This document shows, in pieces, positions 1,847 through 48,002 of a stretch of 56,039 bases of DNA. The DNA is from Candidatus Levyibacteriota bacterium (lineage in GTDB: Bacteria > Patescibacteriota > Microgenomatia > Levybacterales > UBA12049), in contig PJMG01000003.1 of assembly GCA_003173895.1 (NCBI GenBank), positions 1-56,039 on the forward strand, written 5' to 3'. The notes beneath the pieces are model-generated. The model did no database searches. It had not been told where the DNA came from and saw only the letters and a list, made by a program, of their open reading frames with translations. A program made the translations under genes and the position numbers. Within the stretch, counting starts at the first letter, position 1, and the number at the start of each line of letters is the position of its first letter.

Positions 1847-1985
1847 GGGGTCCTGTCGCAGGTTTCCCTTCCAAAATGTTTGTCCTGTGATCAGGATCAA
1901 CGGACTGCACATTTTTGAACCTCTTCGAGTCTGAGCCAGAGGGTTCATCCCTCAGAGTCGAATGACTTTCCACCCGCACCACCCC
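1847..1985 (+). repeat. family B structured element (B1), candidate 5' leader RNA
   Basis: GGGGTCCTGTCGCAGG...CCCGCACCACCCC closing stem; internal hairpins; TAATAT box at 1830-1835, 11 nt upstream. Confidence 0.75.
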
Positions 1986-2033
1986 TCATGTTTACTTGAC
2001 TCCACATTCTTATTTTGATGTTATAATGGCTTT

Positions 2034-3065
2034 ATGCAAAAAATTATTGTTACACATAAAAATCCTGATTGGGATGCTATAACGAGTGTTTGGATTTTAA
2101 AAAAATTTTTACCAGGATGGGGAAATGCTAATGTGGAGTTTGTAAATGCGGGAGAAAGGTTGGAATTACAAATAGTAAGGGGTCCTGTCGCGACTTTCCC
2201 TCCCAAAAGTGCTCGCAATGGGTCTAATGCTGATGCATTAAATGCTGCGCGCTCTTGGAGCCCTTCCAGTCGCACCACCCCTGCTTCTGAAGAAAATACT
2301 ATTGAGATTGTTGAAAATAAAGAGATTATCCATGTTGATACAGGAATGGGACCATTAGATCATCATCAAACTTCAGATATGAACACTTGTGCTACTAGTC
2401 TCTGCTGGTTTTATGTTAAAGCTAAAAATCCAGAATTTAAAGATATGGATGCTGTAAAAATTGAATCAATTAACAAAATTGTTAAGTATGTAATTCTACT
2501 AGATCATTTTCAGGAAGTATATTTCCCAGACGCTGCATCAGATATATATGAATTTGCTCTTTATGGACTTATCGAAGGTTTTAAAATGGAATTCCCAAAT
2601 GACGATAATAAATGTTTAGAGTTTGGTTTTACATTATTAAATGCTGTATCTCATAGATTTGAGCAGAAAATATGGGCTGAAAATGAAATTAAAGAAAAAG
2701 GAATTGAGTTTGAAACTAGATTTGGAAAGGCGATGGGAATTGAGTCATTAAATGATGAAGTAGTAAAGTTAGGGCAAAAAATGGGATTTGTAATAGTGAT
2801 AAGAAAAGATCCTAGAAAAGGTTATGCACGAGTGAAGGCAATACCTGAAAAGAATTTAGAGTCTAGAGTTCAGAGTTCAGAATTGAAAAAAACTGGTATT
2901 GATTTGACTCCAGTTTATGAGAGATTAAAAGAAAAAGATCCAGCAGCTTCGTGGTTTTTACATGTTTCTAAAAAAATGCTCTTGAATGGTAGTGCTAAAA
3001 ATCCTAAAATGAAAGCAACAAAGTTAAATTTGAAAGAAATTATTGAAGTAGTAAAGGAGATTTAA
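2034..3065 (+). CDS. DHH-family phosphoesterase (NrnA-like) carrying two in-frame repeat insertions
   Basis: THKNPDWDAITS (DHH motif I/II-like) and DTGMGPLDHHQ (DHH motif); insertions at 2179-2281 and 2850-2887. Confidence 0.6.
   Translation: MQKIIVTHKNPDWDAITSVWILKKFLPGWGNANVEFVNAGERLELQIVRGPVATFPPKSARNGSNADALNAARSWSPSSRTTPASEENTIEIVENKEIIHVDTGMGPLDHHQTSDMNTCATSLCWFYVKAKNPEFKDMDAVKIESINKIVKYVILLDHFQEVYFPDAASDIYEFALYGLIEGFKMEFPNDDNKCLEFGFTLLNAVSHRFEQKIWAENEIKEKGIEFETRFGKAMGIESLNDEVVKLGQKMGFVIVIRKDPRKGYARVKAIPEKNLESRVQSSELKKTGIDLTPVYERLKEKDPAASWFLHVSKKMLLNGSAKNPKMKATKLNLKEIIEVVKEI
2179..2281 (+). repeat. family B element (B2) inserted in frame in the DHH gene
   Basis: GGGGTCCTGTCGCGACT...AGTCGCACCACCCC; core nearly identical to B4; translated as RGPVATFPPKSARNGSNADALNAARSWSPSSRTTP. 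Confidence 0.8.
2850..2887 (+). repeat. family E AT-rich repeat (E3) in frame in the DHH gene
   Basis: aagaatttagagtctagagttcagagttcagaattgaa matches E1/E2b (aatttagaatctagagttcagaatt). Confidence 0.7.
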
Positions 3066-3394
3066 TGGAAGATTGTATTTTTTGTAAAATAGCTACGCAT
3101 CAAATAAGTAAAGACTTTATTTATGAAGATGAGGAGATTATGGTTTTTCCCGATATTCATCCTATTAAAGAAAAACATCTTTTAATTATTCCTAAAAAAC
3201 ATTATGTAGATTTTATGCAGCTAGAAGATGATAAATTAATGGCTAAAATAAAGAATAAGATTCAAGATTTAGTAAAGGAACATAAATTAAAAAATAATGG
3301 TTTTAGAATAGTAGTTAATGGTGGAGGGGCGCAGGCTATAGATCATCTTCATTTTCACCTCACAGGACCTTGGGGTAAAGCTGCAGACATGTAA
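3065..3394 (+). CDS. HIT-family (histidine triad) nucleotide hydrolase
   Basis: C-terminal HLHFHL histidine triad; start overlaps the upstream stop (TAATG); AAGGAG Shine-Dalgarno (SD) motif. Confidence 0.85.
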   Translation: MEDCIFCKIATHQISKDFIYEDEEIMVFPDIHPIKEKHLLIIPKKHYVDFMQLEDDKLMAKIKNKIQDLVKEHKLKNNGFRIVVNGGGAQAIDHLHFHLTGPWGKAADM

Positions 3395-3426
3395 AAGAGA
3401 CAATTGTTTCTTTAGGTGTCTACATT

Positions 3427-3455
3427 TTGACATTCTCCTTAAAATGTTGTAACAT
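3427..3455 (+). promoter_or_regulatory. putative sigma70-type promoter for ORF 3496
   Basis: TTGACA (3427-3432), 17-nt spacer, TAACAT (3450-3455). Confidence 0.35.
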
Positions 3456-3495
3456 TACCTTCATAATGTCCTATAACAATTAAGACACTGTATTT

Positions 3496-4029
3496 ATGAG
3501 TGAATTTAAACCTTATTCCATGGCTGATTTTAGAGAAAGACAAAAATGGAGAAAAGAGCAACAAAGCTGGAGAGATCAGTCTAATATTGAGATTGGCTCT
3601 TTTGACAGTGAAAATGGTCTAAGTTATTTTGATTTCAAATTTAGCCGACCATCTGATCTTTCTACCAAAAAAGCTAGATTTTTAATGTCAGACAGAAGCA
3701 GTAATATAGAAGTTATTCTTAGAGGTAAAGATCTAAATACAGATAAGCATTTTGTACTACAAAATAATGGTATTATTTCTGTAAATGATCAGGGAGGCTG
3801 GCATATTCTAATAGATAATAATTGGGGTGATATTATTTCTAATGTGGTGAATCAAGTAGAAAATTTAGCAGACGAGCTAATTCCGAGATTTGAGGGAATT
3901 TTTGATAATGAGATTAATAAGTTATATATACTTAAGTCAAGACTTGAAGTATTTAAAGAAGCTGATAATTGGTTAAATGGAGATGACGCTACTCCCAGTA
4001 TCCTAGAAGGAGATAAAATTCCCGCCTAA
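3496..4029 (+). CDS. hypothetical protein
   Basis: 177-aa ORF, no recognisable motif. Confidence 0.5.
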   Translation: MSEFKPYSMADFRERQKWRKEQQSWRDQSNIEIGSFDSENGLSYFDFKFSRPSDLSTKKARFLMSDRSSNIEVILRGKDLNTDKHFVLQNNGIISVNDQGGWHILIDNNWGDIISNVVNQVENLADELIPRFEGIFDNEINKLYILKSRLEVFKEADNWLNGDDATPSILEGDKIPA

Positions 4030-4045
4030 TTTACTCAAAATTTTG

Positions 4046-4054
4046 TGCTATAAT
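4046..4054 (+). promoter_or_regulatory. extended -10 box (TGcTATAAT) upstream of rpsU
   Basis: tgctataat about 70 nt before the rpsU ATG; the leader contains the D1 palindrome and a GAGAGGGGG SD. Confidence 0.4.
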
Positions 4055-4084
4055 ATTTATACTTCTAATTTCATTTGAAATTTG

Positions 4085-4102
4085 ATCCGCCAGCTGACGG
4101 AT
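4085..4102. repeat. family D GC palindrome (D1, one mismatch), in the rpsU leader
   Basis: atccgccagctgacggat. Confidence 0.8.
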
Positions 4103-4123
4103 ATTGAGAGGGGGTGTTTTTAT

Positions 4124-4324
4124 ATGGTTAAAGTTAAAAAAAATCCAGGAGAATCTGATGAAAGTTTAATTCGTAAATTTACCAGAAAAGTTATGCTGGA
4201 TGGTATTTTAATGGAAGCAAAAAGACGTAAATTTCATTTAAAACCATCCCTAGCTCGTAAGCAGCGTAAAAAAGATAAACAGCAAGCTCGAGCATTAATG
4301 GCTAAATTAATGAAAACTTCATGA
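4124..4324 (+). CDS. rpsU: 30S ribosomal protein S21
   Basis: MVKVKKNPGESDESLIRKFTRKV...; SD GAGAGGGGG upstream; the ORF-track start at 4082 runs through palindrome D1 and is unlikely. Confidence 0.85.
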   Translation: MVKVKKNPGESDESLIRKFTRKVMLDGILMEAKRRKFHLKPSLARKQRKKDKQQARALMAKLMKTS

Positions 4325-4710
4325 ACAACAAAGTAAAAACTTTAATTTTTGTTGAAAGTAGGTATAAAATTAACAGAAAGCGAATTAAAGCAACTGTTGA
4401 GAGAGTTTTAAAAACTCAAAATTTAACAGGAAATGTAGAAGTTTCTATAGCTTTCGTAGGTGATCGTAAAATGCGAGAGCTATCTCGCAAATATAAGAAT
4501 GAAGATAAAACTCGTAATATTTTATCTTTTTCATTTGCTGAGGGAGAAATGACTGTCATGCCACCTGATATTTTAAGACTAGGGGATATAGTAATTTCTT
4601 ATCCCTATCTTATTAAAGAAGCTGTTGAATTTGAAGAATTAGTGGATGATAGAATTGATATGTTAGTCGAACATGGTTTAATGCACTTACTAGGACTTCA
4701 CCACGAGTAG
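4321..4710 (+). CDS. ybeY: rRNA maturation endoribonuclease YbeY
   Basis: HGLMHLLGLHHE zinc-binding motif at the C-terminus; ATGA overlap with rpsU. Confidence 0.85.
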   Translation: MNNKVKTLIFVESRYKINRKRIKATVERVLKTQNLTGNVEVSIAFVGDRKMRELSRKYKNEDKTRNILSFSFAEGEMTVMPPDILRLGDIVISYPYLIKEAVEFEELVDDRIDMLVEHGLMHLLGLHHE

Positions 4711-4770
4711 AATTTAGAATCTAGAGTTCAGAATTAAGAATTCTGAATTATGAATTTTGAATTCTAAATT
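4711..4770. repeat. family E AT-rich palindromic element (E1)
   Basis: aatttagaat...attctaaatt outer pairing; inner ttcagaatt-aag-aattctgaa; first 32 nt are the exact reverse complement of 6326-6357. Confidence 0.8.
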
Positions 4771-4776
4771 CTTATT

Positions 4777-6258
4777 ATGGTTTTTTATAGAAAATATCGT
4801 CCACAAAAAATAGAAGATTTAGATAGTAAATCTCTTCAAGAAAGTTTATTTGCGATACTTTCTAAAAAAGAAATACCGCATGCTCTTTTATTCGCAGGAC
4901 CAAAAGGGCTTGGTAAGACTTCTACAGCTAGGATAGTAGCAAAGGTAGTTAATTGTACTAATCGCGGTAAAAATATAGAACCTTGTAATAAATGTGAACA
5001 GTGTATTTCTATCACTAATGGTTCTAATATAGATGTTTTGGAGATTGATGGAGCATCTAATCGGGGTATTGAAGAAATTCGTGATTTAAAAGAGAAAATT
5101 AGAGTTTTTCCGTCCTCTGCTTCTAAGAAAATTTATATTATCGATGAAGTGCACATGTTAACTACAGAAGCTTTTAACGCACTTTTAAAAATAGTAGAAG
5201 AACCACCTGAATATGTCATGTTTATTTTCGCGACTACAGAACTGGAAAAAGTTCCTGAAACGATTTTATCTCGCTGTTTTATAGTTAATTTTAAAAAAGC
5301 TACACAAAGTGAAGTAATACATTCACTTAAAAGAATTGTAGAAGGTGAAAAAATTAATATTACAGATGGAGCCCTAGAAGAAATTGCTAAATATTCAGAA
5401 GGTGGATTTAGAGATGGAGCTAAATATTTAGAAGAAGTTTCTACATTTGCTTCAGATAAAAAAATTGACATAGAGGATGTCAGAAAAATCTTAGGAACTA
5501 GTGGCATTGAACAAAGTTCTATAGAGTTTTTAGAAGCTCTAATAAAAAAAGATTTAAAAAAGAGTTTAGAAATTTTAAAAAATTTAGAAGAAAAAGGCAG
5601 CGATGCTAAATATTTCGCTTCAAATTTACTTCAGATTTTACAAGATTCTTTAATGGCTAAAAATGGTTTTGAGATGAAAAATAAAATTGATGAGAATTTA
5701 GAAGATATTTATTTAATGCTGGAAATATTTTCAGATGCTGCACTAAAAATTAAAAATGCTATTTATCCATTCTTACCAATTGAAATGGGAGCAGTTCATT
5801 ATTTTTTAATAAAAAATAATGATGAATTAGGAAGTAGGAATCAGGAAGTAGGAAACATAAAAAATAATAATAGTAATTCTAGAAAAACGATAGAAGATTT
5901 AGAGAAAATGGCGATGACTAAAAAGATTGTTGAATTCAGAATCCATCCGCCAGCTGGCGGATCAGAATTAAAGGATAAAAAAATTAATACTGAGGGAAAA
6001 ATCCAACAGGGTAATCTACATGATCAGAAAGATTTATTGGACAATTTAATTTATAAAGTAAAAGCTGATAATTTTTCTCTGGCTGGAGTTTTAAGAAGTT
6101 TTAAGAGTTATGAAATTCAAGCAGATCAAATAGTTTTAAAAACCAAGTATAAATTTCATAAACAAAAATTAGAAGAAGCCAAAAATTTAAGCGCTATTGC
6201 AAAAGCTTTAAAAGAAATAACTGGAAAAAATCTTAAAGTTCTGGTAAGCTTGGAATAA
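4777..6258 (+). CDS. dnaX: DNA polymerase III subunit gamma/tau
   Basis: Walker A GPKGLGKTS, zinc module CNKCEQC, DEVHML, SRC motif; contains D2 and a ggaagtaggaatcaggaagtagg repeat. Confidence 0.9.
   Translation: MVFYRKYRPQKIEDLDSKSLQESLFAILSKKEIPHALLFAGPKGLGKTSTARIVAKVVNCTNRGKNIEPCNKCEQCISITNGSNIDVLEIDGASNRGIEEIRDLKEKIRVFPSSASKKIYIIDEVHMLTTEAFNALLKIVEEPPEYVMFIFATTELEKVPETILSRCFIVNFKKATQSEVIHSLKRIVEGEKINITDGALEEIAKYSEGGFRDGAKYLEEVSTFASDKKIDIEDVRKILGTSGIEQSSIEFLEALIKKDLKKSLEILKNLEEKGSDAKYFASNLLQILQDSLMAKNGFEMKNKIDENLEDIYLMLEIFSDAALKIKNAIYPFLPIEMGAVHYFLIKNNDELGSRNQEVGNIKNNNSNSRKTIEDLEKMAMTKKIVEFRIHPPAGGSELKDKKINTEGKIQQGNLHDQKDLLDNLIYKVKADNFSLAGVLRSFKSYEIQADQIVLKTKYKFHKQKLEEAKNLSAIAKALKEITGKNLKVLVSLE
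5945..5962. repeat. family D GC palindrome (D2) in frame in dnaX
   Basis: atccgccagctggcggat, translated HPPAGGSE. Confidence 0.85.
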
Positions 6259-6259
6259 T

Positions 6260-6293
6260 AAGAATTTAGAATTCTGAATTTATAATTCAGAAT
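6260..6293. repeat. family E hairpin (E2a)
   Basis: attctgaatt-tat-aattcagaat perfect 10-bp stem immediately after the dnaX stop. Confidence 0.7.
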
Positions 6294-6325
6294 GTAAATA
6301 GGAATATTTATTTATAAAGATCCAT

Positions 6326-6357
6326 AATTCTTAATTCTGAACTCTAGATTCTAAATT
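6326..6357. repeat. family E repeat (E2b), inverted copy of 4711-4742
   Basis: aattcttaattctgaactctagattctaaatt is the reverse complement of aatttagaatctagagttcagaattaagaatt. Confidence 0.85.
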
Positions 6358-6380
6358 ATAGCGAAGGTAGGTGATATTTT

Positions 6381-6659
6381 ATGTTTAATCCATTAAAAGG
6401 CTTAGGTGATCTTAAAGCAATGCGAGATCAAGCTATGGCCATTCAAAAACAACTTCAAACTATAGTTCTAACTGTAGATAAAAAAGGTGTACAAGTTAGA
6501 ATTTCAGGTGATCAAAAGATTTTAGAAATAAGATCTAATGGTAAATCTGATGATGATATTAAAGAAGCCATTAATGAAGCTATTAAAAAATCTCAAGAGA
6601 CAGCAGCTAAAGAACTTTCACAAATGGGTGGAGGTTTAGGAGGATTGCTAGGAAGATAA
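6381..6659 (+). CDS. ybaB: YbaB/EbfC family nucleoid-associated protein
   Basis: 92 aa; position between dnaX and recR is typical; AAGGTAGGTGA SD. Confidence 0.8.
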   Translation: MFNPLKGLGDLKAMRDQAMAIQKQLQTIVLTVDKKGVQVRISGDQKILEIRSNGKSDDDIKEAINEAIKKSQETAAKELSQMGGGLGGLLGR

Positions 6660-6664
6660 AAATT

Positions 6665-6689
6665 TGTCATCCTGAACAGTGAAGGATCC
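6665..6689 (+). repeat. family C hairpin repeat (C1)
   Basis: tgtcatcctgaacagtgaaggatcc. Confidence 0.7.
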
Positions 6690-6708
6690 TTATTATTAGC
6701 TCTTAAGA

Positions 6709-6871
6709 GCAGTATGCTTTCACAATTTTTGGTGTCGCTCAGGGAAGTGATTGAAATTTTAAGAAAGTATTCGGACTTCGCTAGTGGAATTTTCTCACCA
6801 ATAGTAATCTAACCTTTGAATGCCTCTTTAGAGAAAATTCCAATTCACCAAAAATTGAAAAGACAAACTGC
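6709..6871 (+). repeat. family A' nested-hairpin element (A'1)
   Basis: Outer stem gcagtatgctttcacaatttttggtg / caccaaaaattgaaaagacaaactgc; inner ggaattttctc / gagaaaattcc; tcgctcagg and ttcgctagtgg boxes. Confidence 0.8.
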
Positions 6872-6897
6872 ATTTTTAATAAGTGTCAATATAATAA

Positions 6898-7257
6898 TTA
6901 CTCAGCTTTTTTCTTAGATCTTCTTTTAGTAGAAGTTGTAGTTTCTGTAAGAGTTTGAGTTACATCTGGATTAGATTTTGCTTCTAGAGTTACTTGATGT
7001 ACATTAGGACTATAAATTTGAGAATTAATGGGAATATCTCCGGCCGGATCAAAAACACGCTCTACGGTACTAATGGCTTCTTCGGTAGTACTTGCATTTA
7101 CATCAAATGTCACTACATGACCAAATCTAACTTTGGAGACCTCATTAAATCCTAACTGATGTAATCCATCTAATATTGTATTTCCTTCTGGGTCATTAGT
7201 TGTTGGGCTAACTAATATATAAGCATCAATCTCATGGATAGGATTTTCTTGGCCCAT
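6898..7257 (-). CDS. PurS-like protein (FGAM synthase PurS domain) with Lys-rich tail
   Basis: NDPEGNTILDGLHQLGFNEVSKVRFGHVV resembles the PurS DPQG...AL..LG...V..VR.GK signature. Confidence 0.5.
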   Translation of the reverse strand: MGQENPIHEIDAYILVSPTTNDPEGNTILDGLHQLGFNEVSKVRFGHVVTFDVNASTTEEAISTVERVFDPAGDIPINSQIYSPNVHQVTLEAKSNPDVTQTLTETTTSTKRRSKKKAE

Positions 7258-7319
7258 ATATTTACTATAAAAAAAGATTTAGCATTTTTCAAGAATAGGT
7301 GGTATATTTAAGTTTAGTA

Positions 7320-12278: not shown

Positions 12279-12282
12279 TACT

Positions 12283-13035: not shown

Positions 13036-13056
13036 GGGGTCCTGTCGCACCACCCC
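13036..13056 (+). repeat. family B minimal (collapsed) element B3 in the cysS leader
   Basis: ggggtcctgtcgcaccacccc equals the fused 5' and 3' ends of B1/B2; TAAAAT box 5 nt upstream; ATG 8 nt downstream. Confidence 0.7.
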
Positions 13057-15068: not shown

Positions 15069-15234
15069 AGAGTATACTTTTCGCAATTTTTCGACACGCT
15101 CGCGTACTTTGTTTGTGGAGATAGATAATATTCAAACTCGCTAATGGAATTTTCTCACCAAGGTTTGTTATAGATTTTATAATTTAATATTAAGAGAAAA
15201 TTTCAAATGTCTCAAAATTGAAAAAGCATACTCT
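15069..15234 (+). repeat. family A' nested-hairpin element (A'2)
   Basis: agagtatacttttcgcaatttttcgaca / tgtctcaaaattgaaaaagcatactct; inner ggaattttctc / gagaaaatttc; more than 90% identical to A'3 outside a variable spacer. Confidence 0.85.
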
Positions 15235-31380: not shown

Positions 31381-32379
31381 ATGGATATTAAAGAAAATAT
31401 AATTTTAGCTCCATACACGACTTTTCATATTGGTGGTCCTGCGGATTATTTTTTAATAGCTAAAAATACGCAGGAATTAATGGATGGAATTAAATGGGCG
31501 GAAGAAAAGAATATTTTATTTTTTATTTTAGGAAGCGGGGCAAATATTTTAGTGGGGGATAAAGGATTTAGAGGATTGGTGATCAAAAATGAGAGTTCAC
31601 AGGTCACAGTTAAAAGTTCACAGGAAGTGTCATTACTTACTGCGGATTCGGGAATTACTATTGCTGAGTTAATTACAATAACCACAGAAAAAGGACTTTC
31701 AGGTTTGGAGCATTTTGCTGGAATTCCATCTACTTTAGGTGGAGCAATTTGGCAGAATTTACACTTTTTATCCGCTGATCGATCGGAAACTGTTTTTATC
31801 GGAGATATTTTAGAAACAGCTATCATAATTCCAAATGTTACGTCTTTGCGAGGAACAGAAAGTGACGAAGCAATCTCAAAAGGATTGCCACTCGAACAAA
31901 GTTCGCTCGCAATGACGAGGACGGTAAATAAAGATTATTTTAAATTTGCTTATGATTACAGTATTTTACACGACACTCATGATATCGTTTTATCTGCTAC
32001 TTTAAAATTAAAACCAGAATCTCGTGAAGTTATTAAATCTACTATTAATGCTAATTTAAAATGGAGAGCTGAAAAACATCCAGAAAATGCCGTGAATTGT
32101 TCAGCGGGATCAATCTTTAAGAAAATTCCTGCCCGCCTCGCAAGCGAGAGCGTTGCGGGCAGGGAAGGCGGCGCTGGACGTTTTATTCAACAAGTCGGAT
32201 TAAAAGGACATAAAATAGGTGGTGCTCAAATATCAGAAAAACATGCTAATTTTATTATTAACGCAGGAAATGCGAAGGCTTCTGAAGTTTTATCTTTAAT
32301 AAATTTAGTTAAGGAAAAAGTTAAAAAGGAGCTTGGATTAGATATGGAAACTGAAATAAGTTTGGTTGGAGAGTTCTAG
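31381..32379 (+). CDS. murB: UDP-N-acetylenolpyruvoylglucosamine reductase
   Basis: FHIGGPADYF, GSGANIL, AGSIFKK...GLKG..IGGAQISEKHANFIIN; two in-frame repeat insertions. Confidence 0.9.
   Translation: MDIKENIILAPYTTFHIGGPADYFLIAKNTQELMDGIKWAEEKNILFFILGSGANILVGDKGFRGLVIKNESSQVTVKSSQEVSLLTADSGITIAELITITTEKGLSGLEHFAGIPSTLGGAIWQNLHFLSADRSETVFIGDILETAIIIPNVTSLRGTESDEAISKGLPLEQSSLAMTRTVNKDYFKFAYDYSILHDTHDIVLSATLKLKPESREVIKSTINANLKWRAEKHPENAVNCSAGSIFKKIPARLASESVAGREGGAGRFIQQVGLKGHKIGGAQISEKHANFIINAGNAKASEVLSLINLVKEKVKKELGLDMETEISLVGEF
31841..31919. repeat. family G palindromic MITE (both GIY-YIG-element ends, no cargo) in frame in murB
   Basis: cgtctttgcgagg..gaagcaatc-tcaaaag-gattgcc..ctcgcaatgacg; translated TSLRGTESDEAISKGLPLEQSSLAMTR. 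Confidence 0.75.
32128..32163. repeat. family H GC-rich hairpin (H3) in frame in murB
   Basis: cctgcccgc-ctcgcaagcgag-agcgtt-gcgggcagg; translated PARLASESVAGR. Confidence 0.75.
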
Positions 32380-32380
32380 A

Positions 32381-33394
32381 ATGAAAAATAGATTTACAGA
32401 AATTGATGATCTTCGTGGTTTAGCTATTTTCTTCATGATTTTGGTTCATACTTCAGTTTATTTTCTGACTGATTCGTTTATGAAATTTTTATGGAATTTC
32501 TCTGAATGGTCAGTAGCAGGATTTATCTTTTGCTCGAGTTTTGTCTACTTTATAAATAGTAAAAATAATTTTTGGAATGAGAAAAAAATTGATTTTAAAC
32601 TATATTGGCAGTATTTATTAAAACGCTTAAAACGTTTAATTATTCCGTATTATATTTTTCTGTTAGTTTTTATATCATTACTTTTATTAACTCACAATAA
32701 ACTGCTTAACACAAAATACATAATTTTTTCTACATTTTTAGTGGGTGGGGTAGATATAAGTTGGTTAGTTTTACTTTTTCTTATTTTTGCTCTTATGTTT
32801 CCTCTTATAAAATATCTCTTTGAAAATTATAAAAAAATATTTTATTTAGGATTTTTTCTTTCGTTTCTTTCTCTTATTTATTTCTTATTTATTCATAATT
32901 TAAATTTTAATTATCGTTTTATTTTTTGGTTACCATGGAGTTTTATAGTTTTTTATACGGTTTTATTTACTGATTACTCTTTGAGAGAAAAAAGTAAATT
33001 GAGTAATAAGTATTTTTATCTTTTTTCAATATTATTTTTTGTCTTTTCATTTTTATTTTCATTTATTTATCTTCAGCAAAATTATTTAAATTTAGATCAA
33101 ATTAGTAATAAATATCCACCTAATCTTTATCATATTTCATTTGGACTATTAGGAGTTTTAGGGTTTTATTTATTATCTAAAATTGGAATATTTAATCCGC
33201 CAGCTGGCGGACTTAGAAAGTTTTTAAATTTTTTAAGTTTGAATTCTTATTCAATTTATTTTATTCACTATACGATTTTATATTTTACAGCCAGTTGGTT
33301 TGTAAAGAATAGTAATTGGTTTTTATTTACGATTTTTGTTTTTATAACTAGTTTAATTTCGCAAAAAACTTTTAATTTGATTTTAAAAAAATAA
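32381..33394 (+). CDS. acyltransferase family 3 membrane protein
   Basis: MKNRFTEIDDLRGLAIFFMILVH start typical of acyltransferase_3; multi-TM. Confidence 0.7.
   Translation: MKNRFTEIDDLRGLAIFFMILVHTSVYFLTDSFMKFLWNFSEWSVAGFIFCSSFVYFINSKNNFWNEKKIDFKLYWQYLLKRLKRLIIPYYIFLLVFISLLLLTHNKLLNTKYIIFSTFLVGGVDISWLVLLFLIFALMFPLIKYLFENYKKIFYLGFFLSFLSLIYFLFIHNLNFNYRFIFWLPWSFIVFYTVLFTDYSLREKSKLSNKYFYLFSILFFVFSFLFSFIYLQQNYLNLDQISNKYPPNLYHISFGLLGVLGFYLLSKIGIFNPPAGGLRKFLNFLSLNSYSIYFIHYTILYFTASWFVKNSNWFLFTIFVFITSLISQKTFNLILKK
33196..33211. repeat. family D GC palindrome (D5) in frame
   Basis: tccgccagctggcgga translated NPPAGGL. Confidence 0.85.
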
Positions 33395-36558: not shown

Positions 36559-36725
36559 AAGCTCATTGAAAGTACTTTTTAAACAGGCGTTCGCTAACTT
36601 TGTTTATAATTAAAATTATATTTCATCTCTCACTCGTGAAAGTTTGCTATTAGTTTAACATTGAAACATAAAATATTAAACAGCAAACTTCCAATGCTCT
36701 TTAAAGAGTACTATTCAATTCACTT
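36559..36725 (+). repeat. family A nested-hairpin element (A2)
   Basis: aagctcattgaaagtacttttt...ctcactcgtgaaagtttgct...agcaaacttcc aatgctc...; starts 2 nt after the trhO stop. Confidence 0.8.
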
Positions 36726-38817: not shown

Positions 38818-38981
38818 AAGCTCGCAGAATGTATTTTAAAAGCCGCTCGGAAACATGAATCTTAAATTAATATTAAATTGTCATTCTCGCTCGTGAAAGT
38901 TTACTACCAAAGTCAAAAAGAAATTTAAGAATATTAAACAGTAAACTTTCAATGCTGTTTAAAATACATATCTGCTCGCTC
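38818..38981 (+). repeat. family A nested-hairpin element (A3)
   Basis: Outer gcagaatgtattttaaaagc / gctgtttaaaatacatatctgc; inner tgaaagtttact / agtaaactttca; compensatory versus A1. Confidence 0.8.
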
Positions 38982-41288: not shown

Positions 41289-41427
41289 AGAGTTAGCTTT
41301 TCACAATTTTTCGACACGCTCGCTCCAAGATCGCTAATGGAATTTTCTCACCAAAGTTTGTTACTGATTTTATAACTTAATATTAAGAGAAAATTTCAAA
41401 TGTCTTAAAATTGAAAAAACTAACTCT
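41289..41427 (+). repeat. family A' nested-hairpin element (A'3) between the tkt halves
   Basis: agagttagcttttcacaatttttcgaca / tgtcttaaaattgaaaaaactaactct; inner ggaattttctc / gagaaaatttc. Confidence 0.85.
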
Positions 41428-41461
41428 TTAAATACTTGATGTTTTAATTAAAAATTAATAT

Positions 41462-42463: not shown

Positions 42464-42481
42464 GGGTAATATTTTGATTTC

Positions 42482-42587
42482 GGGGTCCTGCCGGTTGTTT
42501 CCCTCCCGAAGGTGCTCGCAATGGGGTTAATTCTGATGAATTAAAATGCTGCGCACCATCGAGAACCCTTCCAACAACCGTCACCCC
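42482..42587 (+). repeat. family B structured element (B4), candidate 5' leader RNA
   Basis: GGGGTCCTGCCGGTTGTT...AACAACCGTCACCCC; GGTGC/GCACC and AATTC-TGAT-GAATT inner stems; TAATAT box 9 nt upstream. Confidence 0.8.
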
Positions 42588-42597
42588 TTGGAAAATT

Positions 42598-44253: not shown

Positions 44254-44254
44254 T

Positions 44255-45472
44255 CTACTGTTTTAATTCTATTTCAAACTTATTCCATTTTTTAAAAGCT
44301 TTATAAATTGGCAGAATATTTAAAAAATACCAAAAAACTACTAATTGCTGCATGACCCAAGCTAAAAATCCACTAATTTGAATTTTATCTAAAATTTGTG
44401 CCACAGCAAATCTTCCTTTCAAAGGCACGATATAACCTAAATGAATTATTTTATATTTCTTAAGAGGCTTATTTAAAACTAAATTAATAATATTTTCTCC
44501 TACGATTTTTCCCATGTCTTCAGCTACTTCCGCCACTCCTGGAGGAGATTTTTGTGTCATTTTATCAATGAAAGCTGCGATATCGCCAGCAGCAAAAATA
44601 TTACTCAGATCTTCTACCTGTAAATAATCATTTACTATAATCTGACCATGATTATTAACGGGTAAATTTGACACTGAAGCTATATGATTGGCTGCGACAC
44701 CTCCTGTCCAAATAAGAATGTCGTAATCAAAAGCATTTCCTGTATCCGTAAAAACTTTATCTTTAGTTACTTTTTTAATATGCCCGCCAAAAAGATAATG
44801 GACATTTGGACCAGAAACTCTTTTCTCCGCCACTTCAGAAACCTTAGGATCCAGTTCACTTAATAAATGATTTGAGCGTTGAAGTATAGAAATATCCAGA
44901 CAATTTGGATCTAAATGATTCTGAGTGGCTAATTTATCTTTGTACATTAAAAGTTCTCCTGCTAATTCAGTTCCAGAGAAACTTCCACCGCCTATTATAA
45001 CTTTAGTTTTTTTATTACATTTTCCTTCTTCGCAGCACGTAGACTTGATTTGATCACGAATTTTTACAGCATCTTCTAATGTTTTAAGTGGCATACTATA
45101 TTTTTCCAATCCTTCTATATTCATAAAAGAAGGTTCACTACCTAAAGCGATAATGAGATAATCATACTTAATTCCCATTTCTGCTTGAGGTTCTAAATTT
45201 AACTTTATTTGTACTATTTGTTTGGTTGAATCAATTTTTTCTACATTTGCTTGTATCAAATTTATTTTATTTCCAAATATCTCTGAATAGGGAATGGCTA
45301 CGTTTTTCATAGGTTCCTCAGAAGTTGCGACTTCATAAAGCGAAGGATGAAAAGTTTGAAAATTATCTTTATCCACTAAGGTAATTTCTGTATCTTTTAA
45401 ATTAGCTTTTATTAATTCTAATCCGACCCTAATGCCAGCAAATCCTCCACCCAGAATAACGACATTTTTCAT
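44255..45472 (-). CDS. NAD(P)/FAD-dependent oxidoreductase (NDH-2 type)
   Basis: VVILGGGFAGI and IIGGGSFSGTE dinucleotide folds, AAGDIA. Confidence 0.8.
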   Translation of the reverse strand: MKNVVILGGGFAGIRVGLELIKANLKDTEITLVDKDNFQTFHPSLYEVATSEEPMKNVAIPYSEIFGNKINLIQANVEKIDSTKQIVQIKLNLEPQAEMGIKYDYLIIALGSEPSFMNIEGLEKYSMPLKTLEDAVKIRDQIKSTCCEEGKCNKKTKVIIGGGSFSGTELAGELLMYKDKLATQNHLDPNCLDISILQRSNHLLSELDPKVSEVAEKRVSGPNVHYLFGGHIKKVTKDKVFTDTGNAFDYDILIWTGGVAANHIASVSNLPVNNHGQIIVNDYLQVEDLSNIFAAGDIAAFIDKMTQKSPPGVAEVAEDMGKIVGENIINLVLNKPLKKYKIIHLGYIVPLKGRFAVAQILDKIQISGFLAWVMQQLVVFWYFLNILPIYKAFKKWNKFEIELKQ

Positions 45473-45508
45473 AGGCTAATTATACTTTGGATTGATTTAT
45501 AAGTCTAG

Positions 45509-46165
45509 TTATACTCCAAGTAGGTTCCTAGTGAAGTTAAAAATAGTAAAAATTAAGTTTTGAAGTGAAAAGCCCCCAATAGGGAAGAGTAAAAGAAAAA
45601 GAATAAGCATAGGTCCTATAGCGCCAATAGATAAATAAGCTCTAGCTTCTCGATCAGGTAAAATCAGAGAGAAAACTTTAGATCCATCTAAAGGTGGAAT
45701 TGGTAATAAGTTAAAGATGGCTAATAAAATATTGTACTGAGCAATAGTTAAAAATAAATAATATGAAAAGCCTAAAATTATACCTAGAAATTGGTTAGAA
45801 GCAGATCCGAATAGTGGGAGAATGTGCATTATTATTGAAGCGATAATGGCTAGTAAAACATTAGTTAAAGGTCCAGCTAAAGCCACCAGTGCTATATCTT
45901 TTCTACCTTCTTTTAGGTTAAATTCATCAATAGGCACAGGTTTTGCTCCTCCAAATATTACTGGTGAACCTGAAATTATAAGCAGTAATGGCACTAAAAT
46001 ACTAAAAACTGGGTCAATATGCTTTAATGGGTTTAAAGTTAAGCGTCCTGCCAATCTAGCTGTTGGATCACCTAATTTATCAGCTACCCAGCCATGAGCG
46101 ACTTCATGTAAAATGGCTGAAAAAACTAAAATAATAAGACCTAAAATGATGGTTAAAATATTCAT
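45509..46165 (-). CDS. site-2 protease family (M50) membrane metalloprotease
   Basis: HEVAHGW HExxH motif in a TM segment; LLPIPPLDG. Confidence 0.75.
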   Translation of the reverse strand: MNILTIILGLIILVFSAILHEVAHGWVADKLGDPTARLAGRLTLNPLKHIDPVFSILVPLLLIISGSPVIFGGAKPVPIDEFNLKEGRKDIALVALAGPLTNVLLAIIASIIMHILPLFGSASNQFLGIILGFSYYLFLTIAQYNILLAIFNLLPIPPLDGSKVFSLILPDREARAYLSIGAIGPMLILFLLLFPIGGFSLQNLIFTIFNFTRNLLGV

Positions 46166-46220
46166 AATAAATCTCCGAAGTGTTGTAAATCCATTCTCAT
46201 TCTAGTATAATTACTCTACT

Positions 46221-46430
46221 ATGGCAATGCGATGTATAAATTGTAACAAAGGATCTATGTGGGGACATAATGTTTCTCATGCTAAAAATAGAACTAATAG
46301 AGTTTTTAGACCAAATCTCCATGTAGCTAGAATTAAAGTTGGTAGTGTTTCTAAAAAAGTTAAACTTTGCACAAAGTGTTTAAGGATGGTTAAAAAAGCC
46401 GCTAAAGAATCTCCCACTAAAGCTTCTTAA
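46221..46430 (+). CDS. rpmB: 50S ribosomal protein L28
   Basis: C..C.KG...G..VSHA.NRT.R.F.PNL; TATAAT lies 9 nt before the ATG. Confidence 0.85.
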   Translation: MAMRCINCNKGSMWGHNVSHAKNRTNRVFRPNLHVARIKVGSVSKKVKLCTKCLRMVKKAAKESPTKAS

Positions 46431-46441
46431 TTAGAGTTGTT

Positions 46442-46945
46442 TTATCTACCCCTAATATTAGTAGTTGATATGCTTGATAATAAGTTAAATTGATCATTTT
46501 TTTGGCAGATACCTATTTTAACTAAAACTGGTAGATTTTTATCTCCAAATTTAATATCTTGCATTCTGATAAAGTATATTCTAAGTGCATCGTGTTTTAT
46601 ATAATAAATACTTTGATCACTGTTAGGATACTGTAGAGTATCAAAACCTTTATTATTATTTTCTAAAAAATGTAAGATACCCTTATAGAAAATTCTATTT
46701 AAATCTTGCCTTCCTGAACTTTGATTAGCTTTTTCTGCTAAATTTATGAGTTTGCCTCTTACTGCACTACCAATATAAGCTTGTTTTCCATTGCTAAAAG
46801 TAGCAAGTTGCAAATAGCTAGGAGATTGTAAATCGTTGGAATTTAACCAAGGGAAAGTTTCTTCAGTTAAATTAATAGCATAATCTGTCTTTTCTACATT
46901 AATAATGCCATAAGGTAAAAAATTTTCTCCTTCTCGTAATGCCAT
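46442..46945 (-). CDS. hypothetical protein (C-terminal part faintly RelE/Gp49-like)
   Basis: 167-aa ORF downstream of fmt; ALRIYFIRM...PVLVKIGICQKNDQ. Confidence 0.4.
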   Translation of the reverse strand: MALREGENFLPYGIINVEKTDYAINLTEETFPWLNSNDLQSPSYLQLATFSNGKQAYIGSAVRGKLINLAEKANQSSGRQDLNRIFYKGILHFLENNNKGFDTLQYPNSDQSIYYIKHDALRIYFIRMQDIKFGDKNLPVLVKIGICQKNDQFNLLSSISTTNIRGR

Positions 46946-46990
46946 GGCGCTATTATAAGATAAGGTAGTTGTATAATCAACACCAAGAAG

Positions 46991-47824
46991 TTAAGAGAGT
47001 TGTAGATTTTCCACTAAATCTTTTCCCCAACTATATCCATTAATAAAATCTTTAATACTCACAGGTTTTTTCCCTTCGATTTGAATTTTTTCATTGGGTA
47101 AAAACTTAATTCTTAATTCTTGATTTTTAATTCTATGAGTTGTCCAGACTCCAGGCCAGGGGAAATAAGCTCTTACCATGCTAGCAATTTGCAATTTACT
47201 CGAAAATTTAGCGTCTAAATTAATATACCCGCTTTCTCTATTTAAAGGTTTTGTATAAGTAGCGTCTGTATGATTTTGTGGTTCAGGAATTAACTCATCA
47301 GTTAAATATGTGGAAATTATATTAATAAGCATCTGTGAGCCAATAGTAAATAATCGAGTATATAAAGTGTCCGAGGTATCTGTGTCTAAAATGGGTTCTT
47401 CTTTTTGCCCTAAAATAGGTCCATGATCCATGTCACGATCTAATAGCATAACAGAAACTCCAGTTTTGTGGTCTCCGTTTAAAATAGCTGTTTGGACGGG
47501 AGTAGTGCCGCGATATTTAGGAAGTAGAGAAGGGTGGATATTAATAATGCCTTTAGGAAATAAATCTAAAAAACTTTGAGGAATTATCAGGCCAAATGAT
47601 GCGAGAACGGCAATAGGACAGTTTAAGGTTAAGAGCTTAGAGCTTAGAGTTTGATCGAGTTTATTAGTAGAGATATATTCTATATTATTTGCTTTAGAAT
47701 ATTTAACTACTGGATCTGAAGTTTCTTTTTCAGTAGTAACCACGAGTTTAAGATCAAAGTTTTGTTTAAGAACTTCTATGATAGGGATAACATACTTCCC
47801 AGAGCCAAAAAAAATAATATTCAT
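46991..47824 (-). CDS. fmt: methionyl-tRNA formyltransferase
   Basis: MNIIFFGSG, INIHPSLLPKYRG SLLP motif. Confidence 0.9.
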   Translation of the reverse strand: MNIIFFGSGKYVIPIIEVLKQNFDLKLVVTTEKETSDPVVKYSKANNIEYISTNKLDQTLSSKLLTLNCPIAVLASFGLIIPQSFLDLFPKGIINIHPSLLPKYRGTTPVQTAILNGDHKTGVSVMLLDRDMDHGPILGQKEEPILDTDTSDTLYTRLFTIGSQMLINIISTYLTDELIPEPQNHTDATYTKPLNRESGYINLDAKFSSKLQIASMVRAYFPWPGVWTTHRIKNQELRIKFLPNEKIQIEGKKPVSIKDFINGYSWGKDLVENLQLS

Positions 47825-47837
47825 AATTAATTTTCAC

Positions 47838-48002
47838 GGGGTCCTGCCAATTGTTTCCTTCCCAGCAGTGCTCGTTCATGATTATTCACTTGCGCGCTGG
47901 CGGGAGCCTCTTCGAGCCGATTCGTCCTGAGCTCACGGTCGAAGGATCTGAGCCTGAGGGTTCATCCCTCAGAGTCGAATGACCTCCTACAACTGTCACC
48001 CC
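47838..48002 (+). repeat. family B structured element (B5) between def and fmt, antisense to the operon
   Basis: GGGGTCCTGCCAATTGT...ACAACTGTCACCCC; carries a B1-type module plus a nested C-like unit (gtcctgagctcacggtcgaaggatc). Confidence 0.8.

What the first reader, a model, noticed from the sequence alone, without database searches (positions are those of the whole stretch)
1847..48002. Family B: modular GGGGTCCTG...CACCCC rod-like elements with covarying stems, at predicted transcript 5' ends
There are five copies, all in + orientation: B1 1847-1985, B2 2179-2281, B3 13036-13056, B4 42482-42587 and B5 47838-48002. All share the closing stem GGGGT/ACCCC.
- The next stem has a different sequence in each copy but stays complementary: GCGACT/AGTCGC, CGGTTGTT/AACAACCG, CCAATTGT/ACAACTGT, GCAGGT/ACCCGC.
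- B2 and B4 share a core with further compensatory pairs: AGTGC/GCGCT vs GGTGC/GCACC, and TAATGC-TGAT-GCATTA vs TTAATTC-TGAT-GAATTAA.
- B1 and B5 share an extra module, TTCGAGTCTGAG..GAGGGTTCATCCCTC..CTCAGAGTCGAA. In B5 that module is itself interrupted by a C-like unit.
- B1, B3, B4 and B5 each have a TAATAT, TAAAAT or CATAAT box 5-11 nt upstream of the first G. A transcript would therefore start at or near the element.
- B1, B3 and B4 lie directly before the DHH gene, cysS and the FAD oxidase. B5 points antisense into def.

Possible roles are 5'-terminal stabiliser hairpins, attenuators (the stem is followed by a U-rich tract), small RNAs or selfish hairpin DNA.
Basis: partly seen in the sequence, partly recalled or inferred. 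Interest (0 to 1): 0.75.

Follow-up and report, generated by a model that had tools for sequence, protein, structure and literature searches.

The report
In-frame palindromic repeats in CPR genes
The five "Family B" hairpins belong to a large, apparently undescribed family of GC-rich palindromic repeats in Levybacteria-type candidate-phyla bacteria that mostly sit inside essential genes and are translated through as a disordered loop, much like the palindromic elements of Rickettsia.

Summary
All five copies are at the stated coordinates on the + strand. A covariance model finds no others in the window, and the covarying stem holds up in 62 copies from about 35 candidate-phyla (CPR) genomes.

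The "transcript 5' end" reading does not hold. B2 lies inside the DHH-family ORF and is read through in frame.

Of 71 verified copies:
- 45 lie inside long ORFs of housekeeping genes (dnaX, radA, topA, recJ, infB, leuS, prs and others).
- 36 of those 45 are sense and use one reading frame, giving RGPV..FPPASA..RAVGSPS..TP.
- 39 of the 45 have a length of 3n+1.
- Third codon positions are as conserved as first and second, so the constraint is on the nucleic acid.

Occupancy is patchy. Of the 120 closest RadA homologs, 9 carry an intact copy, 4 a decayed one and 76 are empty, including neighbours 94-95% identical. Copies decay by slippage deletions, and B3 is one such relic. B1 and B5 also carry a nested second mini-palindrome that occurs on its own elsewhere.

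Best reading: a selfish, RPE-like "coding palindrome", probably spread through a hairpin form of one DNA strand. No Rfam family, no phage or plasmid copy and no paper was found.

Still unexplained: no target-site duplication, no transposase, and a stem (P2) that differs between copies whose centres are nearly identical.

The parts
1847..1985 (+). B1: composite copy of 139 nt (3n+1) in the divergent spacer between ORF 1206-1775 (-) and the DHH-family gene. The shell is canonical, the centre is divergent, and a second element is nested in it.
   Evidence: CM hit of 37.8 bits covering both ends; sequence; P2 has one A.C mismatch (by eye).
1924..1962 (+). Nested mini-palindrome TTCGAGTCTGAGCCAGAGGGTTCATCCCTCAGAGTCGAA in the 3' internal loop of B1.
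   Evidence: Shared with B5. Its exact 24-mer occurs outside any B copy in 9 other genomes.
2179..2281 (+). B2: canonical rod of 103 nt (3n+1) inside the DHH-family ORF. It is translated in frame as residues 49-82, RGPVATFPPKSARNGSNADALNAARSWSPSSRTTP.
   Evidence: CM hit of 85.6 bits; ORF read-through; absent from the closest homologs P0002 and P0003; AF2 pLDDT below 50 for residues 44-85.
2034..3065 (+). Host gene of B2: a DHH-family phosphoesterase-like protein of 343 aa.
   Evidence: Homologs carry PF01368 and are mostly 300-312 aa; alignment A2.
13036..13056 (+). B3: a 21-nt relic holding only the shell, GGGGTCCTGTCGC|ACCACCCC. It is identical to a B2-type copy deleted between its two GTCGC direct repeats. 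It lies 8 nt upstream of cysS.
   Evidence: CM hit of 21.9 bits with the 81 central model positions missing; the derivation from B2 was checked on the sequence; its fold is no better than shuffles.
42482..42587 (+). B4: canonical rod of 106 nt (3n+1) in the spacer between the transketolase C-terminal subunit gene and the FAD-linked oxidase gene.
   Evidence: CM hit of 79.4 bits; fold z = -2.5; neighbouring genes.
47838..48002 (+). B5: composite copy of 165 nt in the def-fmt spacer, antisense to both genes. It has a canonical 5' half and core, with a nested mini-palindrome in the 3' internal loop.
   Evidence: CM hit of 44.1 bits on the core; sequence; neighbouring genes.
47911..47979 (+). Nested mini-palindrome in B5. 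It is itself split by a further 30-nt hairpin unit at 47917-47946 (CCGATTCGTCCTGAGCTCACGGTCGAAGGA).
   Evidence: Comparison with B1 and with free copies in L195, L196 and L202, which carry TCCTGAGCTC...TCGAAGGA arms.

Best explanation
**What it is**
Family B is a family of GC-rich, imperfectly palindromic repeats of about 80-170 nt. It occurs in Microgenomates-type CPR bacteria (Levybacteria, Curtissbacteria and relatives), with a distant variant in Saccharibacteria. It behaves as selfish DNA of the kind known from Rickettsia palindromic elements (RPEs): a "coding palindrome".

**Anatomy (shown)**
- Closing stem GGGGU/ACCCC.
- A small internal loop.
- A variable but paired stem, P2.
- A pyrimidine-rich internal loop, UUUCCCU / AGCCCUUCC.
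- Conserved stems CCCG/CGGG and CAGUGC/GCGCUG, the latter with a fixed U.G pair.
- A free apical part.

**How it persists (shown)**
- The stretch from GGGG to CCCC is 3n+1 nt. With one flanking base on each side it forms whole codons.
- One stop-free frame encodes a Pro/Ser/Ala/Gly/Arg-rich peptide.
- A copy landing in a permissive surface loop of a protein is therefore translated through as a disordered loop and tolerated, even in essential genes.
- In spacers the element is simply a hairpin repeat.

**How it spreads (inferred)**
- The hairpin is the form recognised during propagation. This would explain conserved synonymous sites and compensatory changes.
- The strand-specific G.U/G.T pairs, and the tendency of the top strand to lie on the G-rich strand, suggest a single-stranded DNA form on the lagging-strand template.
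- Transfer of filled alleles between related genomes by homologous recombination probably contributes.

**How it decays (shown)**
Copies decay by slippage deletions between short direct repeats (B3; L107). They also acquire nested insertions of a second mini-palindrome (B1, B5).
For: **Family membership and spread**
- 66 further copies in CPR genome bins were verified with the covariance model.
- No Rfam family matches.

**Structure**
- 95% of cells are paired. There are 144 double-sided changes, against 41.5 +/- 7.4 in shuffles and 18-43 in slid controls.
- Five P2 pairs each show 11-21 compensatory sequences.

**In-frame residence**
- 45 of 71 copies lie in long ORFs.
- 36 of the 45 use the one sense frame (p = 2e-20 against a one-in-six expectation).
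- 39 of the 45 have a length of 3n+1 (p = 2e-13).
- Hosts are DnaX in 7 genomes, RadA, TopA, RecJ, IF-2, PRPP synthetase, LeuRS (3 copies in one gene), TGT, DprA, ComEC, a Mur ligase, 6PGD, polyprenyl synthase and the DHH-family protein.

**The constraint is on the nucleic acid**
- Third codon positions are conserved at 0.93 (5' block) and 0.89 (3' block). First and second positions are at 0.84-0.88.

**Tolerated as a loop**
- B2 encodes residues 49-82. AF2 gives pLDDT below 50 for residues 44-85 in an otherwise confident fold.

**Gain and loss**
- The closest DHH homologs lack B2. More distant ones carry copies a few residues away.
- Of 120 RadA homologs, 9 have an intact copy, 4 a decayed one and 76 are empty. 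The insertion point varies by 0-12 residues.
- The intact allele P0148 has empty nearest neighbours at 94-95% identity.

**Decay**
- There is a 54-nt in-frame deletion between GCTGA repeats in near-identical strains.
- B3 equals B2 deleted between its GTCGC repeats.

**Orientation**
- 29 of 36 non-sense copies have their top strand on the G-rich strand (p = 3e-4).

**Precedent:** RPE behaviour as described in PMC10969869.
Against: - No target-site duplication is visible. The one filled/empty pair is not a clean insertion: an 18-nt linker is replaced, and the flanks within about 80 nt are 15-28% diverged, against 3-8% between the two empty alleles.
- No transposase or autonomous partner was found, and none was systematically searched for.
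- No presence/absence difference was seen within 90%-identity protein clusters, so recent mobility is not demonstrated.
- Several sites are occupied in distant genomes. The IF-2 copies of hosts only 61% identical share the same site and an identical shell. This fits in-situ conservation as well as it fits repeated insertion.
- P2 differs at 6-10 of 13 positions between copies of one genome whose centres are 86-100% identical. Simple copy-and-diverge does not predict this.
- The GC-skew bias is partly confounded by coding-strand composition.
Confidence: 0.72

Rival explanations
1. The elements are ancient, vertically inherited insertions kept by selection where they sit. They would act as a structured module within essential mRNAs (for example a translational pause, a processing site or a protein-binding site), and stem P2 would evolve by compensatory substitution in place.
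For: - The same loops are occupied across distant genomes: the DnaX linker in 7 genomes, RadA, PRPP synthetase and RecJ.
- The IF-2 copies of hosts only 61% identical sit at the same residue, with an identical shell and P2, although the flanking codons differ.
- Synonymous sites are conserved, and P2 shows strong covariation.
Against: - Occupancy is patchy. An intact RadA copy has empty neighbours at 94-95% identity, and insertion points differ by up to 12 residues.
- Decayed copies and in-frame deletions exist.
- 26 copies are intergenic and 8 are antisense to their host ORF, so their mRNA would carry the complement, which loses the G.U pairs.
- The same loops also hold unrelated insert families, which points to permissiveness, not function.
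Confidence: 0.14
2. One reading: a structured RNA at or near transcript 5' ends, acting as a stabilising hairpin, attenuator or small RNA.
For: - A TANNNT hexamer ends 5-11 nt upstream in 14 of 26 intergenic copies, against about 29% in control windows.
- B1, B3 and B4 lie 8-48 nt upstream of genes on the same strand.
- The structure covaries and keeps conserved G.U pairs.
Against: - 63% of copies are inside ORFs.
- Without the window's own four copies, the hexamer enrichment is not significant (10 of 22, p = 0.075).
- No full promoter-like or terminator-like site is found at any copy.
- The downstream T content is unremarkable.
- B5 and five other intergenic copies are antisense to both neighbouring genes.
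- No Rfam match.
Confidence: 0.06
3. The encoded peptide (RGPV..FPPASA..RAVGSPS..TP) is the selected product: a portable linker, a disordered region or a recognition motif.
For: One frame is used in 36 of 45 in-ORF copies, the peptide is recognisably conserved, and length changes come in multiples of three.
Against: - Third codon positions are at least as conserved as first and second.
- The two most variable codon pairs are the two arms of a stem and change together.
- The same element occurs in spacers and antisense in ORFs, where it gives unrelated peptides.
- The segment is predicted to be disordered.
Confidence: 0.05
4. The elements are removed after transcription or translation, as a mini-intron, a bypassed coding gap or an intein-like segment.
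For: CPR genomes are known for unusual insertions in rRNA genes (noted in PMC7143001). The rod structure brings the two ends together.
Against: Removal would not require a stop-free frame, a length of 3n+1 or one fixed frame, yet all three hold. Excising exactly GGGG..CCCC would shift the frame.
Confidence: 0.03

Closest known systems
Rickettsia palindromic elements (RPE-1 to RPE-10)
   Same: - Palindromic repeats of about 100-150 bp with many copies per small genome.
- Frequently inserted in frame into unrelated housekeeping ORFs.
- Each family encodes a conserved peptide and is compatible with the host protein's fold.
- Orthologous copies are shared between species and decay over time.
- No known transposase (PMC10969869; otherwise from my own knowledge).
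   Different: - No sequence relationship was tested or is expected.
- The host is a free-living or episymbiotic CPR lineage, not Rickettsiales.
- Not described for RPEs, to my knowledge: the 3n+1 length rule, a single frame in 80% of in-ORF copies, a fast-changing but paired inner stem, and reuse of the same protein loops by several insert families.
Bacterial MITEs (Correia/CREE, ERIC, BOX, RUP, Nezha and others)
   Same: Short, non-autonomous, hairpin-forming repeats in many copies. They are sometimes nested, and occasionally intragenic with in-frame fusions.
   Different: - Classical MITEs have terminal inverted repeats that match a parent IS, and a target-site duplication. Here no duplication is seen and no parent IS is known.
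- Most MITEs are intergenic. Here 63% of copies are in ORFs.
REP/BIME elements with RAYT, and IS200/IS605-derived palindrome-associated elements
   Same: Recognition of an imperfect hairpin on one DNA strand, and an orientation bias relative to replication. This is what the G.T pairs and the skew bias suggest here.
   Different: REPs are 20-40 nt, extragenic and carry a GTAG motif. The IS200/IS605 derivatives have separate hairpins at each end. No Y1/HUH transposase was linked to the B elements, and this was not tested.
GC clusters and 'byp' elements of yeast mitochondria
   Same: GC-rich palindromic mobile units in an AT-rich genome. They nest within each other and land inside protein-coding genes (my own knowledge).
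   Different: Byp elements are skipped by ribosome hopping and need no open frame. The B elements keep an open frame and a length that preserves it, so they are most probably translated.
Integron attC sites
   Same: Conserved ends, a variable centre of variable length, structure conserved more than sequence, unpaired bases, and function as a single-stranded hairpin of one strand (my own knowledge).
   Different: There is no R''/L''-L'/R' box sequence (RYYYAAC/GTTRRRY), no cassette array and no integrase context, and the copies lie inside ORFs.

Membership tests
RPE-like coding palindromic repeats (as a kind, not by homology) | Multi-copy imperfect palindrome of about 100-150 nt that can fold into a long hairpin | tested here: met
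   71 copies of 79-166 nt. B2 and B4 fold as rods. The consensus structure is 95% paired.
RPE-like coding palindromic repeats (as a kind, not by homology) | Frequent in-frame insertion into unrelated protein-coding genes, with a conserved encoded peptide | tested here: met
   45 of 71 copies are in ORFs, and 36 of those use one frame. Hosts come from more than 14 gene families.
RPE-like coding palindromic repeats (as a kind, not by homology) | The insert lies at a structurally permissive (surface or loop) position | tested here: met
   - DHH: pLDDT below 50 for residues 44-85, flanks at 86 or above.
- RadA and DnaX: the inserts are in variable linkers.
- Only one structure was modelled.
Rickettsia RPE families proper | Sequence similarity to the RPE-1 to RPE-10 consensus sequences; Rickettsiales host | not tested
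   No RPE sequences were available in the tools. The hosts here are Levybacteria-type CPR bacteria.
MITE | Terminal inverted repeats | tested here: met
   GGGGT/ACCCC is invariant. The flanks beyond a TC/TC mismatch pair more often than chance (2.62 against 2.08 +/- 0.13 of 5 positions).
MITE | Target-site duplication | tested here: not met
   - The flanks show a consensus (ttGCTC | TCGCaa), not a per-copy direct repeat.
- The filled/empty RadA pair shows no duplication.
MITE | A cognate autonomous IS with the same ends | not tested
   - None turned up among the 8-kb loci.
- There was no systematic search.
REP / RAYT system | Extragenic palindrome of 20-40 nt with a conserved GTAG, linked to a Y1 transposase gene | tested here: not met
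   - The elements are 80-170 nt and mostly intragenic.
- The presence of RAYT was not examined.
Any curated RNA family (Rfam 15) | Match to a covariance model at or near its gathering score | tested here: not met
   - No hit at the gathering threshold in the window or in 5 loci.
- The best E-value in the B1/B2 region is 0.55, to an unrelated viral family.
Intrinsic terminator or attenuator | GC-rich hairpin followed directly by a U tract | tested here: not met
   - No terminator-like site at any B copy.
- Mean of 3.9 T in the 10 nt downstream of intergenic copies.
- B3 followed by TCATTTTTAT is the only look-alike.
Promoter-proximal 5' leader | A consistent promoter at a fixed distance upstream, in the same orientation as the downstream gene | tested here: inconclusive
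   - A -10-like hexamer is present in 14 of 26 intergenic copies, against about 29% in controls, but 10 of 22 (p = 0.075) without the window's own copies.
- No -35/-10 pair.
- Orientation relative to neighbouring genes is mixed.

The most novel reading that the evidence does not exclude
The B elements may not be mere junk. They could be the substrate of an undescribed strand-specific (single-stranded DNA hairpin) propagation system in CPR bacteria, and/or a structured module kept by selection inside essential genes.

On this reading:
- The conserved pyrimidine loops and the fixed G.U pairs are the recognition surface.
- The fast-changing but always paired P2 stem, together with the mutually exclusive shell triplets (GUC..GCC, GCC..GUC and GUC..ACC, never GCC..GCC), acts as a specificity or "address" feature.
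- Spread between genomes happens by homing-like homologous recombination of filled alleles, without an endonuclease.
Probability: 0.2. Interest if true: 0.8.

Novelty: new member of a known kind. Interest (0 to 1): 0.6.

Why it matters
**For genome annotation:** CPR (Patescibacteria) genomes are small and usually described as poor in mobile elements. Here a repeat family sits in frame in core replication, repair and translation genes (dnaX, radA, topA, recJ, infB, leuS) across many Levybacteria and Curtissbacteria genomes.
- It explains unexplained GC-rich, low-complexity inserts in CPR proteins.
- It affects gene calling, protein alignments and phylogenetic markers for these lineages.

**For biology:** it gives a second, independent case of the RPE phenomenon, in which selfish DNA shapes protein loops. 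With hundreds of metagenomic genomes available, this case could finally make the unknown propagation mechanism of such elements tractable.

**For method:** it shows that strong RNA-like covariation can come from a DNA repeat, and so does not by itself identify an RNA gene.

Tried and rejected
- **Known RNA family.** Rfam at the gathering threshold and at E-values up to 10 found nothing.
- **tRNA or tmRNA-like.** ARAGORN found none. The GAGGGTTCATCCCTC hairpin has a 5-nt loop, so it is not a T-arm (by eye).
- **Phage or plasmid origin.**
  - The four pattern hits in viral contigs all fail the covariance model.
  - blastn against phage and plasmid records found nothing.
- **Presence/absence among dnaX loci.** The related-loci scan was swamped by the universal YIIDEVHM motif and returned only distant bacteria, so it was uninformative.
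- **Empty sites within 90%-identity protein clusters.** None were found.
- **P2 copied from the flanking target DNA.** I saw no relation between P2 and the flanks (by eye).
- **Target-site duplication "TC".** The flanks are a consensus, not per-copy repeats.
- **Literature.** Full-text searches returned nothing relevant. The terms were Patescibacteria, CPR or Microgenomates with palindromic element or MITE, and the motif itself.
- **Non-CPR hits of the pattern scan.** About half of the 105 hits are chance matches in GC-rich genomes. My estimate is about 50 expected, and they fail the model.

Full report
**1. The observation**

The window is AT-rich (about 31% GC). I built a covariance model (R1) from B2, B4 and 33 related copies from other genomes and ran it without filters. 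It finds these five and nothing else; the - strand scores 12.5 bits at most. B2 and B4 fold into rods clearly better than shuffled sequence. B1 and B5 do not, because extra modules interrupt them. In B1 and B5, however, the second stem has one A.C mismatch each.

**2. The family outside the window**

A degenerate pattern, GGGGTCCTG-N6-8-TTTCCYTYCC, hit more than 105 places in the species-level genome collection. By my estimate about 50 chance matches are expected, and about half of the hits are indeed unrelated GC-rich sequence. R1 confirms 66 copies.
- They lie in genome bins of Levybacteria/Levyibacteriota, Curtissbacteria and unclassified Patescibacteria.
- Some bins are titled Gammaproteobacteria or Chlamydiae but carry Levybacteria-like genes.
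- A shorter variant occurs in Saccharibacteria.

The consensus is (ttgc tc) GGGGTCCTG-YC-N6-TTTCCCTCCCGCCAGTGCTC-[variable apex]-GCGCGCTGTCGGGAGCCCTTCC-N6'-GYC-ACCCC (tc gcaa).

On 62 copies aligned to the model:
- 95% of cells form standard pairs.
- There are 144 cells with changes on both sides, against 41.5 +/- 7.4 in column shuffles and 18-43 when partners are slid.
- The five pairs of stem P2 carry most of the compensation.
- One U.G pair is nearly fixed (54 of 62).

No Rfam family matches. No copy is found in IMG/VR viral contigs, GenBank phages or PLSDB plasmids.

**3. Where the copies sit**

This is the decisive result.
- Of 71 verified copies, 45 lie inside long open reading frames. 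Of these, 36 are sense and in one frame (xGG GGU CCU G..), 1 is sense in another frame and 8 are antisense.
- The translated segment reads RGP(V/A)xxFPPASA...(L/M)RAVGSPSxxxTP.
- The distance from GGGG to CCCC is 3n+1 in 39 of the 45 in-ORF copies (p = 2e-13). With one flanking base on each side this makes whole codons.
- Apical length differences between subfamilies (80, 91, 100, 103, 106, 109, 118, 127, 130, 133, 136 and 166 nt) are nearly all multiples of three.
- Intergenic copies obey the rule less strictly: 14 of 26.
- The host genes are ordinary housekeeping genes: dnaX (seven genomes), radA, topA, recJ, infB, prs, leuS (three copies in one gene), tgt, dprA, comEC, a Mur ligase, 6-phosphogluconate dehydrogenase, polyprenyl synthase and the DHH-family gene.

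In the window, B2 encodes residues 49-82 of the DHH-family protein. The two closest homologs (62-63% identity, 310 aa) lack the segment. More distant homologs carry related segments a few residues away in the same variable loop. An AlphaFold2 model is confident overall but gives pLDDT below 50 for residues 44-85.

**4. Is the constraint on the peptide or on the nucleic acid?**

In the conserved blocks, third codon positions are at least as conserved as first and second positions: 0.93 against 0.88 and 0.86 in the 5' block, and 0.89 against 0.87 and 0.84 in the 3' block. The most variable codons are the two arms of P2, and they change together. The element also occurs in spacers and antisense in ORFs. 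The sequence is therefore constrained as nucleic acid. The peptide is a tolerated by-product, and its frame was probably selected for being harmless.

**5. Gain, loss and decay**

The RadA loop between the Walker-A helix and the next strand gives the clearest picture.
- Among the 120 closest homologs of one filled allele, 76 are empty, 9 carry an intact B copy and 4 a decayed one.
- The other 31 carry unrelated inserts from several other families, including "..ILRSAQND..".
- The B insertion point differs by 0-12 residues between alleles.
- One intact allele (P0148) has empty nearest neighbours at 94-95% protein identity.

At the DNA level this filled/empty pair is not a clean insertion.
- An 18-nt linker is replaced by 10 nt, the 91-nt element and 7 nt. 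No target-site duplication is visible.
- The roughly 80 nt on either side are 15-28% diverged, against 3-8% between the two empty alleles.
- This suggests that a patch was imported by recombination.

Decay is visible in two places.
- Two near-identical strains differ by a 54-nt in-frame deletion between GCTGA repeats inside an old nested copy.
- B3 in the window is exactly what remains of a B2-type copy after deletion between its two GTCGC repeats.

I found no presence/absence differences within 90%-identity protein clusters. Very recent movement is therefore not shown.

**6. Modularity**

The extra module of B1 and B5 is a separate mini-palindrome, TTCGAGTCTGAGCCWGAGGGTTCATCCCTCAGAGTCGAA. Its exact 24-mer occurs once each in nine other genomes (Levyi-, Davies- and Saccharibacteria, Paceibacterota and one "Actinomycetes" bin). 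There it lies outside any B copy, in ORFs and in spacers. In B5 it is itself split by a further 30-nt hairpin unit. Other genomes show different nested modules at the same internal loops of B. Nesting is thus a general habit of these hairpin repeats.

**7. Clues to mechanism**

- *Flanks.* They show a consensus, not per-copy repeats: C at -1 in 57 of 71 copies, T at -2 in 48, T at +1 in 61 and C at +2 in 45. Beyond the TC/TC mismatch the flanks pair more often than chance, 2.62 against 2.08 +/- 0.13 of 5 positions.
- *Orientation.* The top strand of the element is C-rich (skew -0.20). Even so, it lies on the locally G-rich strand in 23 of 29 intergenic and 6 of 7 antisense copies (p = 3e-4 combined). 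All five window copies follow this, including B5, which is antisense to def and fmt. Separating genes by strand shows that part of the signal is coding-strand composition, so this result is suggestive only.
- *Inference.* Together with the strand-specific G.U/G.T pairs, the orientation bias points to a hairpin of one DNA strand, exposed on the lagging-strand template, as the active form. This is an inference. No enzyme was identified.

**8. What remains unexplained**

- *P2 against the centre.* Within a genome, P2 differs at 6-10 of 13 positions between copies whose apical 23-50 nt are 86-100% identical. Between genomes the apex is the most variable part. The same P2 types recur in different genes and genomes. 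Either the centre is homogenised by gene conversion bounded by the two conserved 20-nt blocks, or shells and centres reassort.
- *Shell triplets.* Next to P2 only three combinations occur in more than one copy: GUC..GCC (30), GCC..GUC (18) and GUC..ACC (12). GCC..GCC never occurs.
- *Shared sites.* The IF-2 genes of two genomes only 61% identical carry a copy at the same residue, with an identical shell and P2 but different centres. This fits either long in-situ conservation or exchange between genomes.

**9.

- No sigma-70-like hexamer pair ends upstream of any copy, and promoter-like and terminator-like sites are no more frequent than in shuffles.
- A lone TANNNT hexamer ends 5-11 nt upstream in 14 of 26 intergenic copies, against about 29% in control windows. 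Without the four window copies that prompted the idea, it is 10 of 22 (p = 0.075).
- Downstream T content is ordinary.
- With 63% of copies inside ORFs, the 5'-leader, attenuator and sRNA roles cannot be the family's defining property. "Selfish hairpin DNA" is the option that survives.

**10. Comparison and verdict**

The closest known kind is the Rickettsia palindromic element: palindromic repeats of about 150 bp inserted in frame into unrelated metabolic genes, each family encoding a conserved peptide (PMC10969869). Family B shows the same behaviour in an unrelated bacterial radiation. I have no evidence of sequence kinship with RPEs, and none was tested. It fails the MITE criterion of a target-site duplication and the REP criterion of being extragenic. 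I found no description of it in the searchable literature.

I classify it as a new member of a known kind. Confidence is about 0.7 for the RPE-like selfish-element reading. About 0.14 goes to the rival that the copies are selected where they sit. Interest is moderate to high, because of the breadth of essential genes affected, the clean length-and-frame rule, and the open questions about mechanism.

Noticed in passing
window 1924-1962 and 47911-47979; L195-L203: The mini-palindrome nested in B1 and B5 is an independent element. Its exact 24-mer, GAGGGTTCATCCCTCAGAGTCGAA, occurs once each in nine genomes from several CPR phyla and one "Actinomycetes" bin, outside any B copy. Such identity across phyla suggests horizontal spread.
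   Followed up: partly
window 5930-5975 (inside dnaX, ORF 4777-6258); also 4070-4102 and 33180-33212: A different palindrome (..GAATCCATCCGCCAGCTGGCGGATCAGAATT..) sits in frame in the DnaX linker and encodes ..EFRIHPPAGGSELK... This is the same linker that holds B copies in seven other genomes. The copy at 33180-33212 also lies within ORF 32366-33394 (frame not checked).
   Followed up: partly
window 2851-2884, 4709-4756, 6261-6294, 6325-6353: An AT-rich repeat (AGAATTTAGAGTCTAGAGTTCAGA...). One copy lies inside the second variable region of the DHH-family ORF (..NLESRVQSSELK..), and the others flank dnaX in spacers. It may be another repeat family that is tolerated in frame.
   Followed up: no
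window 414-513, 36608-36705, 38865-38964; and 6778-6869, 15133-15234, 41326-41427: Two families of intergenic repeats of about 100 nt, up to 90% identical (families D1 and D5-D9).
   Followed up: no
RadA homologs P0141-P0260 (alignment): The RadA loop after the Walker-A helix holds B inserts plus unrelated inserts that I sorted by eye into several further families in different lineages. These include "..VVLxxxKDPxxILRSAQND..", which also appears in the DHH homolog P0033. The loop is a general permissive hotspot for in-frame inserts in CPR proteins.
   Followed up: partly
L106 680-778 vs L107 3143-3218: Near-identical Levybacteria strains differ by a 54-nt in-frame deletion between GCTGA direct repeats, inside a decayed B copy nested in another decayed copy within the DHH-family gene.
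   Followed up: yes
L006, L024, L027, L034, L040, L041, L046, L055, L063, L077, L078, L081, L083, L086, L087: Genome bins titled "uncultured Gammaproteobacteria" or "Chlamydiae" carry B copies. Where checked, their genes are Levybacteria-like: P0005 on the contig of L040 is a DHH homolog 55% identical to the window's protein. The taxonomic labels are probably wrong.
   Followed up: partly
alignment A6, columns 9-11 and 172-174: The shell triplets next to P2 occur almost only as GUC..GCC (30), GCC..GUC (18) or GUC..ACC (12). GCC..GCC, the most stable combination, never occurs.
   Followed up: partly
window 2034-6258 vs L106 and L107: In the Levybacteria contigs L106 and L107 the DHH-family gene is followed by HIT, S21, YbeY and DnaX genes. 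The window has ORFs of matching sizes in the same positions (109 aa after the DHH gene, then 129 aa and the 493-aa DnaX), but only its dnaX was confirmed by Pfam. This supports placing the window in Levybacteria.
   Followed up: no
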